DNA of 30,951 bases from a virus (lineage: Duplodnaviria; Heunggongvirae; Uroviricota; Caudoviricetes): the IMG/VR virus record IMGVR_UViG_2778261530_000010; one strand, written 5' to 3'. A program made the translations under genes and the position numbers. Position 1 is the stretch's first letter. Every line of letters begins with the position of its first letter. Shown in pieces: positions 1-4,023 of the stretch. Below the pieces are notes generated by a model. It searched no databases, was not told the origin of the DNA, and worked only from the letters and a program-made list of their open reading frames with translations.

Positions 1-2526
1 TCAGGGTACCGGTCGTCGTCGCTGGCGAGTGGGCGAAAAGCTGCAAATGAAACAGCACTGCCCGCACCCGGACCTGTTACAGGTCGATCCGTTCGAAGCC
101 ATCATCAACGCGCGTTTTGTACCGTTTCTCCACTCCCCCTGCGCAGCATCCATCTGTTGCCAGTAGCGGCGATTCTCATTCAGTTTCCGGTTCAGACTGT
201 CTGTCAGCGTCTGTTCAGCCTTCCGGTATGCGTCAGAACCATACGAGCCTTTCTGCTTACTGTCCCGTTCAAGTTGCTCCAGCTGTTGCTGGTACTGCTG
301 TCGTAGACGCAACTGCGACTGGTACCGCTGCCGTTGCTGATCGCCCATTCCTGCCATGGCAACGTCCAGATCGTGTTGCTGACGCTGTGCGCGCTCTTCC
401 TCAGCCAGTTGACTGGTCAGCTGAATGGTCTTTTTCTTCAGGTCATTGAGGGCAGTCTGCTTCTGCAGCTCCTGCTGTTTTGCATCCAGCAGCGTCAGTG
501 CCTGAATCAGCTCATCCTTGTGAGCCAGTACACTTTTTTCATCTGCTGTCAGTTTTTTACCGGCTAAATCGCTGATACGCTGCTGAAGGGCCAGAAGCTG
601 TTTATGCGCTTCTGTCATCCTTTCAGTAGCCATGCCCGCTGACTGTCTGGCGGCGGCAATCTGTCCCTCCACCTGCGCCTGTTGCTGGCTGTACTGCAGT
701 AATAGCCGGGTGGCCTCATCATTACGGGTGGCAGGCGTTTTTTTCTTAATGGCTTTTTCGTAACGTTCATTTTCACGCTGTATCGCTGCGTCCCTGACCG
801 CCTGATCGGCGTACTGCATGGCATTAATACGCGCAATTTCACGCTGATGTCGTGCTGCTTCCGTTTCGTTCATCCGGTTCAGCGCGGCATTTTCAGCATT
901 CCGGCGTTTCTGCTGCTCCTGATAATTTCGCTCAGCCTGCTCTTTTGCATCCTGCAAATCCTGCTGGCGTTTTCGCTCTTGCAGCGCATCCAGTTGTTGC
1001 TGATCGTATTCCCCCGTGGTGGACGCCTTAGTCCACGGAAATTTCTTCGCCCGCTGAATTTTTTCCTGCAGCGACGCAATCTGCGCATCAAGGGAATCTT
1101 CCCGACCAATGTTCATAGCCGCATCCCAGAACTGCTTCCACCAGTCAGACAAGGTTTGCAGCGTACTGCCCAGCGCATTGAGGTTATTATCAATATCCGA
1201 CGTACGTTTACCGGTTTCCTCTGCCAGTGCAGACATGGCTATCCGGGCTGCGTCACTGGTGCGCCCCTGCTCTCCGAGCACACGGATCTGTTCAAGCTGG
1301 GTGGCTGTCAGAAAATGCAGTTCATCATCCAGCGCCTTCGCAGCACTGACCGGATCATCCTTCAGCCGTTTAAACTGACTGATGGTGTCACTGACAGACT
1401 GCCCTACCGAGCGTTCCATCTGTGCGGCAGCTTTCGCCACCATACCAATATCGTTACCGTGAAATGCACCGCTCCCCACTACCTGCGCCAGTGACCCCGC
1501 CATGGCATGTTGCGTGATGCCATTACCGGAAAGATTTTTACTGAGCGCCCACAACTGCCCGGCTGTCACACCGGCATAGTGTCCGGTGAGCTCAAGCTGC
1601 CGGTTAAAGGCTTCGCCTTCTTCCTGCCCCTCCATCCAGGCTTTACCCAGACCAATAACCGCAGCAGTGATCCCTCCGATAACTCCCCCCACCGCCAGGC
1701 CTTTCGGAGTCATTAATTTATCAATCCAGCCGGCACGGTTAGCCAGGGTGATCCCGGAGCCACGAAGCGCACCGAAATTACCTCGCGCCAGCTCACCAAT
1801 CATGACCCCCAGCTCCCGACGGGCTGCCGCACTTTTCAGTCCCAGCGAATGTGTGGTGTTTCCGGCTTTCTCCATTTTACGGATGTACACCTCCGCGGCA
1901 CTGCTGCACCCAAGTTGTGCCGCCTTTGCCCGAAGCAGTTCCGTCGTGGTCATTTTCTGGCGACTTGTCTGTTCTTTCAGCTGACGAATAAATGCGGTTT
2001 TCTGGCGGGTGGCCGTTTCCTCTGCCTGTGTCAGAACGCGGGTTTTCGCTGTCACCTCAGAAATCAGGGCCAGATAATCCTGCTGAGCAATCCCGCCACT
2101 GTTTCTGGCCTGTCGGATCTGCTGCTGAATACGCTGTAACTCCTGCAGCCCCGCACTGGCCTGTTTTACGCTGTCGATCTGACGATAAAATGCGGCAGCC
2201 ATCTTATCCTGCGCCGCAGCCAGCGCAGCCGCCTGAACCTGCTCCTCCCGCATCTGACGACTCAGGGCCTCCATCCGCAGGCGCGCCCTTTCCACATCTT
2301 CCGCCAGCGAAACATGCCCCTGCGCATGCTTCACCACGGCCTGAGTCTGTATCACCGTCGCGCTGGCAGCCTGTTTCTGACTTTCCTCAAACCGTTTCAT
2401 ACGGGCTTCGGCCCGCTCCGCCTCCCTTGCTGTACCATTCAGCAGATTTTTTACACGCGGAAGCTGCTCTTTAAAATCGGCGGTATCAATGCTTAAATCA
2501 ATGACAAGGTCAGCAATCTGGTCCAA
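1..2526 (-). CDS. H: Tail tape measure protein (lambda gpH-like), complete 841 aa
   Basis: ORF translation starts MDQIADLVIDLSIDTADFKEQ, matching the lambda gpH N-terminus from memory; long coiled-coil Q/A/R-rich body; lies directly downstream of G/T in lambda gene order; TGA stop is at 1-3. Confidence 0.88.
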   Translation of the reverse strand: MDQIADLVIDLSIDTADFKEQLPRVKNLLNGTAREAERAEARMKRFEESQKQAASATVIQTQAVVKHAQGHVSLAEDVERARLRMEALSRQMREEQVQAAALAAAQDKMAAAFYRQIDSVKQASAGLQELQRIQQQIRQARNSGGIAQQDYLALISEVTAKTRVLTQAEETATRQKTAFIRQLKEQTSRQKMTTTELLRAKAAQLGCSSAAEVYIRKMEKAGNTTHSLGLKSAAARRELGVMIGELARGNFGALRGSGITLANRAGWIDKLMTPKGLAVGGVIGGITAAVIGLGKAWMEGQEEGEAFNRQLELTGHYAGVTAGQLWALSKNLSGNGITQHAMAGSLAQVVGSGAFHGNDIGMVAKAAAQMERSVGQSVSDTISQFKRLKDDPVSAAKALDDELHFLTATQLEQIRVLGEQGRTSDAARIAMSALAEETGKRTSDIDNNLNALGSTLQTLSDWWKQFWDAAMNIGREDSLDAQIASLQEKIQRAKKFPWTKASTTGEYDQQQLDALQERKRQQDLQDAKEQAERNYQEQQKRRNAENAALNRMNETEAARHQREIARINAMQYADQAVRDAAIQRENERYEKAIKKKTPATRNDEATRLLLQYSQQQAQVEGQIAAARQSAGMATERMTEAHKQLLALQQRISDLAGKKLTADEKSVLAHKDELIQALTLLDAKQQELQKQTALNDLKKKTIQLTSQLAEEERAQRQQHDLDVAMAGMGDQQRQRYQSQLRLRQQYQQQLEQLERDSKQKGSYGSDAYRKAEQTLTDSLNRKLNENRRYWQQMDAAQGEWRNGTKRALMMASNGSTCNRSGCGQCCFICSFSPTRQRRRPVP

Positions 2527-2863
2527 ATCTCATTCCTCCCGATATACCTTCCCCCAGATGCATCAGCTCTTCATCCGTGCGTTCAGGGATCACCCTGTCA
2601 TCCGTAACCAGACTGAAATCATCCGCCGGAATACGTTCACCGGACACCATCTGAACCATCAGCGACTTCAGTGTGGAAATCTGTGCATCCAGCCAGATAT
2701 CCCCGAAACTCTGCTTCCGGAAGAAATCCCCCCATTCGCCCAGTTCTGACGCTGACATTTCTGATAACATCCGCCGCCAGTCTGCCCGCCGGAACTCACG
2801 GGCAAGCTGCATCACAAACTGCATCTCCCGCGTCAGGACTTTTCCGGTGTCAGAGGAACCTGT
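2510..2863 (-). CDS. T: Tail assembly chaperone T-frame segment, expected to be expressed only as a G-T fusion by programmed -1 frameshift
   Basis: The -1 frame relative to G is open from 2863 down to the stop at 2510 and overlaps the G 3' end; its position between G and H matches the lambda G/GT arrangement. Confidence 0.7.
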   Translation of the reverse strand, partial: TGSSDTGKVLTREMQFVMQLAREFRRADWRRMLSEMSASELGEWGDFFRKQSFGDIWLDAQISTLKSLMVQMVSGERIPADDFSLVTDDRVIPERTDEELMHLGEGISGGMRFGPDC

Positions 2864-3222
2864 TCACCGTTCTGAACATCACCGGTGGAGACCGGCATAC
2901 CACTCAGGGATAAAACCAGACTGCCCCCGTCGCCAAGCGCGTCATAAGACCAGGTGTTTTTTACATCCTCATTCAGCGCATCCACATCCTGTGACGGGTC
3001 CGTATTCCACATTGACCGGGAAACCAGCCAGGCGTTGATATCCATCCCCATACGCAGAAATTCAATCTGACGTTCAGCCACCGGCATGGCATCATCCAGG
3101 GCGTCAAACTCAGCCGTCCGTTTCTGGACAAACGACAGATATTCCACCCGCTGCAGCCCGGACAGTTCTGTCATAACCACAGACTGATCACCGTAATTAA
3201 ATGTGTCCTGTTTCAGAAACAT
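2833..3222 (-). CDS. G: Tail assembly chaperone gpG
   Basis: Translation MFLKQDTFNYGDQSVVMTELSGLQRVEYL resembles lambda gpG; ATG at 3220-3222 is preceded by GGAGAAGG; the ORF-track start at 3243 is a TTG inside the upstream terminator hairpin. Confidence 0.82.
   Translation of the reverse strand: MFLKQDTFNYGDQSVVMTELSGLQRVEYLSFVQKRTAEFDALDDAMPVAERQIEFLRMGMDINAWLVSRSMWNTDPSQDVDALNEDVKNTWSYDALGDGGSLVLSLSGMPVSTGDVQNGEQVPLTPEKS
2839..2845 (-). other. Candidate -1 ribosomal frameshift site, mRNA heptamer GGAAAAG (A_AAG type), 4 nt upstream of the G stop
   Basis: Minus-strand mRNA reads ACA CCG GAA AAG TCC TGA in the G frame; slipping back one base at GAA-AAG enters the open T frame (GGA AAA GTC ...). 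Confidence 0.5.
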
Positions 3223-3241
3223 AACCTTCTCCGCAAACAAC

Positions 3242-3264
3242 AAAAAAACCCCGGCATACCGGGG
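3242..3264 (-). terminator. Intrinsic terminator-like hairpin immediately after the major tail gene V
   Basis: Minus strand reads CCCCGG-UAUG-CCGGGG followed by UUUUUUU (plus strand AAAAAAA CCCCGGCATACCGGGG). Confidence 0.6.
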
Positions 3265-3282
3265 TACAAACAGACCGTCTGA

Positions 3283-4023
3283 TTAACCACCATTAACGGT
3301 AATACTGGCCACTGCGACCTGTGCGCCACCCGCTGTCATCCCGACAATCGAGGTGCTTCCCGCTTTCACACCTTTCACCGTGGCCACCATGCCACTCAGT
3401 GTAACCGTGGCGATCTCAGGAGAGGATGACGCCACACTCACCGTTTTATCAGATGCATCTTCCGGTACTGTGCTGAATGTCAGCGTCGTCGTTGCCCCCA
3501 CCCTGACACTGGCAGATGCCGGTGCCACCGTCAGACCGGTCACGCTAACAAGCCCGGTGCCTTCCTCTGCCAGATACGGACGTCCCACACCGCTGATTTT
3601 CACAGTGCGGGTCATCACCTCTTTAGAGGTAACAGTTTTCCCCAGCGAGCTCAGCCAGCCACGGAAAACATCAACAGTGCCGTTGGGATATTTGATACGA
3701 AACGCACAGACTTCACCAGAGTCGAACAACTGAACCAGTTTTTTCTGCCCGCTGTCACCCGGACGCCAGGCCAGCGTCGCCGAAGTATCACCGACGGATT
3801 TTTGCCCCTGGGTTGTCGTTTTCCAGTCAGCATTTTCATCATCGAGATAATCGTCATCTTCCGCATCTGCAGTCATTTCGCCCGGCTGTAAATCCTTCAC
3901 CATCGCAAGACGCAGCCAGTCAGTATCTGACAACGGAGCCGCAAAGGCGTCCCCTTTGCCGGTATACATCCAGAACGTCGTCCCCGCGCCCTTCGTTTTT
4001 TCCAGTGGATTCGGTGTTGGCAT
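3283..4023 (-). CDS. V: Major tail tube protein gpV with C-terminal Ig-like (Big_2-type) domain
   Basis: MPTPNPLEKTKGAGTTFWMY... and YPNGTVDVFRGW resemble lambda gpV; ATG at 4021-4023 has AAGGAG 6 nt upstream; length 246 aa as in lambda. Confidence 0.9.
   Translation of the reverse strand: MPTPNPLEKTKGAGTTFWMYTGKGDAFAAPLSDTDWLRLAMVKDLQPGEMTADAEDDDYLDDENADWKTTTQGQKSVGDTSATLAWRPGDSGQKKLVQLFDSGEVCAFRIKYPNGTVDVFRGWLSSLGKTVTSKEVMTRTVKISGVGRPYLAEEGTGLVSVTGLTVAPASASVRVGATTTLTFSTVPEDASDKTVSVASSSPEIATVTLSGMVATVKGVKAGSTSIVGMTAGGAQVAVASITVNGG

What the first reader, a model, noticed from the sequence alone, without database searches (positions are those of the whole stretch)
2833..2863. G/GT programmed -1 frameshift with a non-lambda slippery sequence
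The T frame is open only from 2863 and has no SD-bearing start of its own, so T must be made as a G-T fusion as in lambda. The only A_AAG-type slippery motif in the overlap is GGAAAAG (mRNA), 4 nt before the G stop, rather than lambda's GGGAAAG. P-site re-pairing would need a G-U pair, so efficiency may differ from lambda.
Basis: partly seen in the sequence, partly recalled or inferred. Interest (0 to 1): 0.45.

Follow-up and report, generated by a model that had tools for sequence, protein, structure and literature searches.

The report
Lambda-type G/GT tail chaperone frameshift site
This is an ordinary E. coli prophage copy of the phage lambda G/GT tail-assembly frameshift; its slip sequence GGAAAAG differs from lambda's by one base, but phage N15's record already marks that sequence as the slip site and most sampled relatives share it.

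Summary
On the minus strand, gene G (3222..2833, Pfam PF06894) ends ...CCG GAA AAG UCC UGA. The T reading frame (PF06223) is the -1 frame. It is open only from 2863 and runs to 2510.

The only in-phase slippery motif in the 31-nt overlap is G_GAA_AAG (2845..2839). It lies at the position homologous, residue for residue, to lambda's G_GGA_AAG. T-frame protein similarity to lambda and N15 starts at the first codon after the slip.

The heptamer is a sharp island of conservation in 22 diverged lineages. G_GAA_AAG is the majority state. It occurs in N15 (annotated as the slippery sequence in GenBank), Gifsy-1/-2, Fels-1, cdtI, mEp460 and many Enterobacterales prophages. Lambda's G_GGA_AAG occurs in two nested clades.

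I found no conserved stimulatory RNA structure or upstream Shine-Dalgarno (SD) sequence.

It is not conserved in relatives.

Best explanation: low-level -1 frameshifting yields a 237-aa GT fusion.

It is already known in kind and of low interest. One wrinkle: in-vitro work used G GAA AAG as a poorly slipping sequence.

The parts
2833..3222 (-). Gene G, tail assembly chaperone, 129 aa, 14.4 kDa. ATG at 3222, stop TGA at 2835..2833.
   Evidence: PF06894 E 1.2e-37. RefSeq annotates the same CDS as gpG in strain C5. Translation.
2839..2845 (-). Slippery heptamer G_GAA_AAG. In the zero frame, GAA is in the P site and AAG in the A site. After a -1 slip these read GGA and AAA.
   Evidence: Sequence. 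Positions 1 and 3-6 are invariant in 22 diverged lineages, position 0 is G in 21 of 22, and position 2 is A or G. Homologous to lambda G_GGA_AAG and identical to the annotated N15 slippery sequence.
2833..2863 (-). The 31-nt G/T overlap, from the first open T-frame base to the G stop. Any shift that joins G to T must occur inside it.
   Evidence: The T-frame stop TGA is at 2866..2864 and the G stop at 2835..2833.
2510..2839 (-). T-frame segment decoded after the slip: 109 aa, VLTREMQF...RFGPDC, stop at 2512..2510. Base 2839 is read twice.
   Evidence: Translation. PF06223 E 1.5e-13. 38% identity to lambda T and 39% to N15 gp15, collinear from residue 1.
2510..3222 (-). Predicted GT fusion: join 3222..2839 with 2839..2513, 237 aa, 26.9 kDa. 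Junction ...VPLTPEK|VLTREMQF...
   Evidence: Constructed. This exact fusion is absent from the 15-billion protein collection, whereas stand-alone T is present as 104-aa and 100-aa forms.
2825..2829 (-). SD-like GGGAG inside the T frame, formed by codons CGG GAG (Arg-Glu). It lies 0 nt from ATG 2824, 9 nt from GTG 2815 and 12 nt from ATG 2812.
   Evidence: Duplex energies. It is not conserved: GGGAA in the mEp460 group, absent in Gifsy-2 and lambda.
2810..2824 (-). Candidate internal starts for a stand-alone T: ATG 2824..2822 (the RefSeq annotation pipeline's choice), GTG 2815..2813, ATG 2812..2810.
   Evidence: RefSeq starts T at 2824. Other annotations start at 2812, giving the 100-aa form. 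The two ATG (Met) positions are Leu, Arg or other residues in relatives, and the GTG codon is GTC in the mEp460 group.
1..2526 (-). Tape measure protein gene, cut by the window edge. TTG start at 2526 overlaps the end of T by 17 nt, with SD GGGAGG 8 nt upstream.
   Evidence: PF06791 and PF24622. RefSeq annotation. SD duplex -10.3 kcal/mol.
3283..4023 (-). Tail tube protein gene (lambda V homologue with a C-terminal Big_2 domain), immediately upstream of G.
   Evidence: PF16461 E 2.8e-66 and PF02368. RefSeq annotation.

Best explanation
This is the lambda-type tail assembly chaperone recoding site of an E. coli prophage.

Most ribosomes translating G read CCG GAA AAG UCC and terminate at UGA, giving the 129-aa G chaperone. 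A small fraction slips back one base when GAA (tRNA-Glu) and AAG (tRNA-Lys) occupy the P and A sites.

- tRNA-Lys re-pairs perfectly with AAA.
- tRNA-Glu (anticodon mnm5s2U-U-C) re-pairs with GGA through G-C, a middle-position G-U, and A-U.

Translation then continues in the T frame from GUC (2839..2837) to the stop at 2512..2510. The product is a 237-aa G-T fusion with junction ...TPEK|VLTRE....

By analogy with lambda, the G domains of G and GT coat the tape measure protein, and the T domain recruits the tail tube protein. The G:GT ratio is set by the slip frequency.

Shown here: the frame geometry, the homology, the positional identity of the slip site with lambda and N15, and its conservation.

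Inferred: that the slip occurs, its rate, that both tRNAs slip together, and the protein functions.
For: 1. Gene identity and order are tube - G (PF06894) - T (PF06223) - tape measure.
2. T is in the -1 frame with a 25-64-nt overlap in every relative examined (84 loci, 28). The conserved heptamer/T-frame junction was found in 205 of the 214 loci fetched.
3. Across 22 lineages with G identity down to about 30%, the heptamer is a 7-nt island of near-complete conservation. The region upstream of it is poorly conserved, mostly at or below about 1 bit.
4. T-frame protein similarity (K[VA][LFIV]xxE.xF..[KR]LARE) begins immediately at the slip-site Lys and is collinear with lambda T and N15 gp15.
5. 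The Met codons at 2824 and 2812 are not conserved.
6. The N15 record annotates the identical GGAAAAG as the -1 slippery sequence. The Gifsy-1 and Gifsy-2 records describe their T homologues as frameshift products.
7. Heptamer position 1 is G through five different preceding amino acids (CCG, GCG, ACG, CUG, GUG). A rough chance estimate is 0.0065. This points to selection on P-site re-pairing and so to a two-tRNA slip.
8. A_AAG is by far the most shift-prone tetramer in E. coli (PMC4066793). Natural sites with imperfect P-site re-pairing are known: G_CGA_AAG in IS1222 and A_CGA_AAG in Bacillus cdd (PMC5009743).
Against: There is no experimental evidence for this prophage or, in what I could read, for any G_GAA_AAG phage.

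In a reconstituted E. coli system, AUG GAA AAG gave mainly zero-frame product and was described as unfavourable for slippage (PMC6924986).

The A_AAG tetramer alone is near background without a stimulator (PMC4066793). I found no conserved stimulator: the alignment fold scores -1.36 kcal/mol with 34 of 200 column shuffles as good, and the window fold has z = -1.37.

This phage has an SD-like GGGAG 9 nt before GTG 2815, so some stand-alone T cannot be excluded.

The Morganella relative has A_GAA_AAG, where the P-site tRNA cannot re-pair at position 1. The two-tRNA requirement is therefore not absolute.
Confidence: 0.88

Rival explanations
1. T is translated on its own from an internal start (GTG 2815 or ATG 2812, using GGGAG at 2829..2825; or ATG 2824 as RefSeq annotates). 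No frameshift is needed.
For: GGGAG pairs with the anti-SD at -7.4 kcal/mol and lies 9 nt from GTG 2815 and 12 nt from ATG 2812. This is comparable to G's own ribosome-binding site. Public annotation lists T as a stand-alone 104-aa or 100-aa protein on about 1000 contigs each.
Against: ATG 2824 has 0-nt spacing to the SD.

The annotated start differs between records (104 aa against 100 aa), as expected for an ORF without a real start.

The motif and the starts are not conserved:
- The mEp460 group has GGGAA and GTC.
- Gifsy-1 and Fels-1 have CTG in place of ATG 2824.
- Gifsy-2 and lambda lack both the SD and the Met codons.

T-frame amino-acid conservation extends upstream of all three starts, right to the heptamer. 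GGGAG is explained by the conserved Arg-Glu codons. In lambda the functional product is the fusion (Levin 1993 and Xu 2013, as cited in PMC5009743).
Confidence: 0.06
2. The frameshift occurs, but by a single-tRNA slip. tRNA-Lys alone moves from AAG to AAA, either in the A site or in the P site while the A site awaits UCC. Heptamer positions 1-3 play no role. The protein product is identical.
For: A_AAG alone supports -1 shifting in E. coli (PMC4066793; PMC5009743). Middle-position G-U re-pairing is disfavoured in the P site (PMC6787027; PMC6924986). The Morganella relative uses A_GAA_AAG followed directly by UAA, where tRNA-Glu cannot re-pair at position 1.
Against: Position 1 is G in 21 of 22 lineages despite five different amino acids in the preceding codon. 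Position 3 is restricted to A or G, the two bases that keep GGR in the -1 frame. The tetramer alone is near background without a stimulator, and none is conserved here.
Confidence: 0.2
3. The shift into T arises from RNA polymerase slippage on the A4 run, or T is an untranslated remnant.
For: None specific. The site does contain a short A run.
Against: As far as I know, transcriptional slippage needs much longer homopolymer runs; I did not verify this in a paper here. Four A residues are not a known slippage template. T is intact and keeps its length. It also shows amino-acid conservation with low-information third codon positions across lineages down to about 38% identity, so it is translated.
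Confidence: 0.01

Closest known systems
Phage lambda G/GT programmed -1 frameshift (G_GGA_AAG)
   Same: Same gene families (PF06894, PF06223). Same gene order between the tube and tape measure genes. Same -1 direction. Same A-site codon AAG to AAA. The slip site is at the homologous residue (Lys), and T similarity starts at the next codon. No conserved stimulatory structure was detected.
   Different: Heptamer position 3 is A, not G. The P-site tRNA is therefore tRNA-Glu re-pairing to GGA with a middle G-U, instead of tRNA-Gly re-pairing to GGG with a wobble-position change. The G stop is 1 codon after the heptamer, against 5 in lambda. T is shorter: 109 aa after the slip against 144 aa. G is only 30% identical.
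Phage N15 gene 14/15 frameshift (GenBank NC_001901, misc_feature 'slippery sequence for -1 translational frameshift')
   Same: Identical heptamer GGAAAAG in the same phase (GCG GAA AAG) at the same position. The T part is 39% identical and collinear from residue 1.
   Different: The preceding codon is GCG (Ala), not CCG (Pro). N15 has five codons between the heptamer and the G stop. N15 belongs to the lambda-like subclade of the T tree, and the window to the cdtI/mEp460/Gifsy subclade.
cdtI / mEp460 / Gifsy-1 / Gifsy-2 / Fels-1 G-T junctions
   Same: The junction CCGGAAAAG(T/C)CCTGA is the same in all of them and differs at one base only. G ends in TPEKS or TPEKP. The overlap is 25-31 nt. The Gifsy records already describe T as a frameshift product.
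   Different: G protein identity is 50-68% and T 59-75%. Internal Met/SD features differ. In most of these records no joined CDS is annotated.
A_AAG sites with imperfect P-site re-pairing (IS1222 G_CGA_AAG; Bacillus subtilis cdd A_CGA_AAG) and E. coli dnaX A_AAA_AAG
   Same: They rely on tRNA-Lys slipping from AAG to AAA in bacteria that have a single tRNA-Lys (PMC5009743; PMC4066793).
   Different: dnaX and the IS elements use an upstream SD and/or a downstream hairpin or pseudoknot. None is conserved here. Here the P-site tRNA keeps two Watson-Crick pairs plus one G-U pair.

Membership tests
Lambda-type G/GT tail assembly chaperone frameshift (conserved tail assembly chaperone frameshift of long-tailed phages, Xu et al. 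2004) | Two overlapping ORFs lie between the major tail (tube) gene and the tape measure gene. | tested here: met
   The order is V homologue 4023..3283, G 3222..2833, T frame 2863..2510, tape measure from 2526.
Lambda-type G/GT tail assembly chaperone frameshift (conserved tail assembly chaperone frameshift of long-tailed phages, Xu et al. 2004) | The upstream ORF is homologous to lambda gpG. | tested here: met
   PF06894 E 1.2e-37 over residues 1-119. 30% identity to lambda G in the alignment.
Lambda-type G/GT tail assembly chaperone frameshift (conserved tail assembly chaperone frameshift of long-tailed phages, Xu et al. 2004) | The downstream ORF is homologous to lambda gpT. | tested here: met
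   PF06223 E 1.5e-13. BLASTP against lambda T gives E 2e-23 and 38% identity.
Lambda-type G/GT tail assembly chaperone frameshift (conserved tail assembly chaperone frameshift of long-tailed phages, Xu et al. 2004) | The downstream ORF is in the -1 frame and lacks a conserved initiation site of its own. | tested here: met
   The -1 relationship holds in all relatives examined. The Met codons at 2824 and 2812 and the GGGAG are not conserved. Caveat: this phage does have a plausible SD plus GTG 2815.
Lambda-type G/GT tail assembly chaperone frameshift (conserved tail assembly chaperone frameshift of long-tailed phages, Xu et al. 2004) | A conserved slippery sequence lies in the overlap, near the 3' end of G. 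| tested here: met
   G_GAA_AAG at 2845..2839. It is a conservation island and is positionally homologous to lambda's site.
Lambda-type G/GT tail assembly chaperone frameshift (conserved tail assembly chaperone frameshift of long-tailed phages, Xu et al. 2004) | A G-T fusion protein is made at a few percent of G and is required for tail assembly. | not testable with these tools
   This needs protein analysis and genetics. Only lambda data are cited (PMC5009743).
Canonical X_XXY_YYZ slippery heptamer | Positions 1-3 are identical and positions 4-6 are identical, so both tRNAs keep their non-wobble pairs after the slip. | tested here: not met
   Positions 1-3 are G, G, A, so the P-site tRNA-Glu would need a G-U at the middle position (PMC6924986). 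The site works like a heptamer site but is not a canonical one.
Stimulated bacterial -1 frameshift signals (dnaX, IS3/IS911 type) | An internal SD about 10 nt upstream and/or a stable hairpin or pseudoknot 5-9 nt downstream. | tested here: not met
   No SD lies upstream in the window. Downstream fold z = -1.37. No consensus structure in 22 lineages, with alifold at -1.36 kcal/mol and 34 of 200 shuffles as good.

The most novel reading that the evidence does not exclude
G_GAA_AAG, treated in vitro as a poorly slipping sequence, is the commonest and possibly ancestral natural slip site of lambda-family G/T genes in the lineages sampled. Two readings follow:
- These phages run tail assembly at a distinctly lower GT:G ratio than lambda.
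- In vivo, a middle-position G-U re-pairing by the hypermodified tRNA-Glu is tolerated far better than current models assume, or an unrecognised context element compensates.

The repeated A/G exchange at heptamer position 3 would then be an evolutionary dial for the G:GT ratio.
Probability: 0.25. Interest if true: 0.4.

Novelty: already known. Interest (0 to 1): 0.15.

Why it matters
There are three mainly practical points.

1. **Annotation.** RefSeq and most phage records annotate T of this widespread prophage family as a stand-alone 104-aa or 100-aa protein. The predicted 237-aa fusion is absent from a 15-billion protein collection. DNA similar to this G-T region occurs in 1669 of 5426 complete E. 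coli genomes. The relatives whose junctions I read carry this heptamer. A joined CDS at G_GAA_AAG would probably correct many records.

2. **Distribution of the heptamer.** G_GAA_AAG, not lambda's G_GGA_AAG, is the majority state in the sampled family. Lambda's heptamer sits in two nested clades. I could not read Xu et al. 2004, so this may already be stated there.

3. **A natural test case.** Two heptamers differing by one base sit at the same site in homologous genes. Lambda tail assembly is known to depend on the G:GT ratio. This allows a direct test of how much a middle-position P-site G-U costs in vivo.

Tried and rejected
- **Downstream stimulatory RNA structure.** Folding 99 nt after the heptamer gave z = -1.37. 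RNAalifold on 22 lineages gave -1.36 kcal/mol, no better than column shuffles. Lambda, N15, Trabulsiella and related lineages share a hairpin about 34 nt downstream, in the LAREFGRPDWR codons. It is absent in the window clade and lies too far for a usual stimulator. Rejected as a conserved element.
- **Upstream internal SD.** A GAGG lies about 10 nt upstream in the mEp460 group only, and none is present in the window. Rejected.
- **Proximity of the stop codon as a stimulator.** Both heptamers occur with 1-codon and 5-codon spacers, so there is no correlation.
- **Other slip sites in the overlap.** None of the other in-phase heptamers can re-pair.
- **Enrichment of GGAAAAG in the window.** None: 6 found against 5.3 expected.
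- **Literature.** Full-text searches for GGAAAAG with frameshift, phage and tail terms returned no phage paper naming this heptamer. Xu et al. 2004 (Mol Cell) and Ravin et al. 2000 are not in the library, so I could not check whether they list it. The PRFect supplement held nothing relevant.
- **Second viral-contig scan with the G alignment.** It returned only the same close relatives and added no diversity.
- **Transcriptional slippage and the pseudogene reading.** Both rejected (see rival explanations).

Full report
**What is in the sequence**

The genes around the finding lie on the minus strand.
- Gene G starts at ATG 3222 and ends at TGA 2835..2833 (129 aa).
- The frame one base back from G is closed by TGA at 2866..2864. 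It is then open from 2863 to the stop at 2512..2510.
- In the zero frame, G ends CAG GUU CCU CUG ACA CCG GAA AAG UCC UGA.
- The heptamer G_GAA_AAG occupies 2845..2839. One codon (UCC) separates it from the stop.
- No other in-phase heptamer in the 31-nt overlap offers any re-pairing.

The string GGAAAAG is not enriched in the window: 6 found against 5.3 expected. Judged from the window's own long ORFs, an in-phase G_GRA_AAG within nine codon positions has a chance of about 0.004, and any in-phase A_AAG about 0.03.

**Gene identity and origin**

- G matches Pfam PF06894, the lambda tail assembly chaperone G (E 1.2e-37).
- The T frame matches PF06223, minor tail protein T (E 1.5e-13).
- The upstream gene is a lambda-type tail tube protein with a Big_2 domain.
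- The downstream gene is a tape measure protein.

The stretch 2400..3400 is 99.9% identical to prophages in the bovine E. coli strains C5 and NS-NP030. It is 60-80% identical to prophage regions in most of the 1669 (of 5426) complete E. coli genomes that match. Among sequenced phages the nearest are mEp460, cdtI and their relatives at about 75% DNA identity, followed by Gifsy-1 and Fels-1.

RefSeq annotates T as a separate CDS starting at ATG 2824. Other records start it four codons later. The exact 237-aa fusion is absent from a 15-billion protein collection, while the 104-aa and 100-aa stand-alone forms are each seen on about 1000 contigs.

**Comparative evidence for the frameshift**

In 84 related loci with G identity of 52-100%, T is always in the -1 frame and overlaps G by 25-31 nt. 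The junction CCGGAAAAG(T/C)CCTGA is invariant apart from that one base.

A search of one genome per species brought in more distant relatives:
- Citrobacter, Serratia, Superficieibacter, Morganella and Symbiopectobacterium;
- Xenorhabdus, Buttiauxella, Atlantibacter and Pluralibacter;
- Phytobacter, Trabulsiella and E. albertii.

Over all 214 fetched loci, many of them redundant, 205 have the junction: 184 with GGAAAAG, 20 with GGGAAAG and 1 with AGAAAAG.

I anchored 22 representative lineages on the heptamer.
- Positions 1 and 3-6 are invariant, position 0 is G in 21 of 22, and position 2 is A or G.
- The 30 nt upstream, which encode the variable C-terminus of G, mostly carry about 1 bit or less.
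- The sequence downstream shows conservation with low-information third codon positions in the T frame.

T-frame protein similarity begins at the codon after the slip-site Lys:
- window: K|VLTREMQFVMQLAREFRRADWRRML
- lambda: K|VFDGELSFALKLAREMGRPDWRAML
- N15: K|ALASELKFAMKLAREFGRPDWRAML

It is collinear, with no offset. Lambda's annotated T CDS starts at the last G of its heptamer, the base equivalent to 2839 here.

The Met codons at 2824 and 2812 are Leu, Arg or other residues in lambda, Gifsy-1, Gifsy-2, Fels-1 and others. They are therefore ordinary internal residues, not conserved starts.

**Is the heptamer unusual?**

It differs from lambda's by one base at position 3: GGGAAAG in lambda, GGAAAAG here. 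It is not novel.
- The GenBank record of phage N15 carries a misc_feature 'slippery sequence for -1 translational frameshift' whose seven bases are GGAAAAG, in the phase GCG GAA AAG.
- The Gifsy-1 and Gifsy-2 records describe their T homologues as frameshift products.
- In neighbour-joining trees of both G and T, G_GAA_AAG is the majority state. G_GGA_AAG appears in two separate nested clades: lambda with E. albertii, and Serratia with Symbiopectobacterium. In this sample lambda looks like the derived state, with at least two interconversions.
- Both heptamers occur with 1-codon and 5-codon spacers to the G stop.
- Morganella has A_GAA_AAG followed directly by UAA.

**Mechanism**

The A-site event, tRNA-Lys moving from AAG to AAA, is the classic bacterial slip. 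A_AAG is by far the most shift-prone tetramer in E. coli, at 5.6% with a strong pseudoknot but near background without one (PMC4066793).

After the slip, the P-site tRNA-Glu keeps G-C at position 1 and A-U at position 3, but needs a G-U in the middle.

Heptamer position 1 is a synonymous third-codon position in G. It stays G through Pro, Ala, Thr, Leu and Val codons. A rough chance estimate is 0.0065, assuming independence. This suggests selection for P-site re-pairing and so for a two-tRNA slip. The Morganella site shows the requirement is not absolute. A single-tRNA slip gives the same protein and remains a live sub-hypothesis.

I found no conserved stimulator.
- The window's downstream fold has z = -1.37.
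- The consensus fold of 22 lineages is -1.36 kcal/mol, matched by 34 of 200 column shuffles.
- There is no upstream SD in the window.

From my own recollection of Levin et al. 1993, which I could not read, lambda's site needs no stimulator either. If so, this absence fits.

**Efficiency**

In a reconstituted E. coli system, Peng et al. used AUG GAA AAG as the sequence 'unfavorable for slippage' because of the second-position mismatch. They saw mainly zero-frame product, whereas G GGA AAG slipped readily when EF-G was limiting (PMC6924986).

The thermodynamic model of Bock et al. gives these values (PMC6787027):
- about +5.1 kJ/mol for a first-position P-site A-U to G-U change;
- -2.9 kJ/mol for the A-site AAG to AAA change;
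- about +3.8 kJ/mol for the A to G wobble change with mnm5U. I assume E. coli's GGA-reading tRNA-Gly carries this wobble base; the paper does not say so. If it does, lambda's own heptamer pays this cost.

On that crude arithmetic the two heptamers need not differ much. That is my inference, and a middle-position mismatch may well cost more.

**Rival: independent initiation of T**

- It abuts ATG 2824 and is unusable for that codon.
- It lies 9 nt from GTG 2815 and 12 nt from ATG 2812.
- Its anti-SD duplex is -7.4 kcal/mol, against -6.6 for G's own start.

A minor stand-alone T of about 11.5 kDa cannot be excluded for this phage. However, the motif simply encodes the conserved Arg-Glu. It degrades to GGGAA, with GTC replacing GTG, in the mEp460 group. 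It is absent in Gifsy-2 and lambda. T-frame conservation also runs upstream of all three candidate starts. I put this rival at about 6% as the sole source of T.

**Verdict**

This is an ordinary member of the lambda G/GT recoding system, carrying the N15-type heptamer that most sampled relatives share.

The predicted products are G (129 aa, 14.4 kDa) and GT (237 aa, 26.9 kDa, junction TPEK|VLTRE).

Novelty is low. What remains useful is the annotation gap and a natural one-base heptamer pair for measuring the in-vivo cost of a middle-position P-site G-U.

Noticed in passing
window 3248..3265 (-), T-run to about 3238: An intrinsic-terminator-like hairpin (ACCCCGGTATGCCGGGGT followed by TTTTTTTGTTG) lies between the tail tube gene and G. 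mEp460, Ayreon and N15 annotate a terminator at the same intergenic position. It may attenuate transcription after the abundant tube protein gene.
   Followed up: partly
window 2510..2540 (-): The tape measure gene starts at TTG 2526 and overlaps the last 17 nt of T. A strong GGGAGG lies 8 nt upstream, with a duplex of -10.3 kcal/mol, the best SD in the neighbourhood. This suggests translational coupling of the tape measure protein to T-frame or G-frame traffic.
   Followed up: partly
window 2810..2824 (-); RefSeq WP_001161001.1 and cluster members: Public annotation gives T two different starts (104 aa from ATG 2824, 100 aa from ATG 2812), each on about 1000 contigs. It never gives the joined G-T CDS. 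This is a systematic annotation gap for this prophage family.
   Followed up: yes
L100 (Morganella morganii H1r), heptamer at locus position 1596-1602 (+ strand): The junction reads GCA GAA AAG UAA. The heptamer is A_GAA_AAG with the stop codon immediately after it. tRNA-Glu cannot re-pair at position 1, so this looks like a pure A_AAG slip next to a stop.
   Followed up: no
L111-L123 (genome-contig hits): Fourteen loci, counting lambda's own record, share a 177-nt junction sequence identical to phage lambda. The others most likely include low-coverage contigs filed under unrelated organisms (Chromatiales, Neobacillus, Pseudomonas, Kitasatospora, Shewanella, Leeuwenhoekiella and others). I did not list the members of this group. 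This is most likely lambda DNA contamination of those assemblies.
   Followed up: partly
L103 (Symbiopectobacterium MAG): T is truncated to 79 aa after the slip, against about 110 aa in its close relatives. This prophage copy is probably decaying.
   Followed up: no
L086, L134, L099, L106, L110, L127, L128, about 34 nt downstream of the heptamer: The lambda/N15/Trabulsiella subclade shares a stable hairpin (GGCGCGUGAGUUCGGUCGCCCGGACUGGCGUGCC-like) within the LAREFGRPDWRA codons. It is absent in the window clade. Its distance from the slip site argues against a classic stimulator. I did not test it for covariation.
   Followed up: partly
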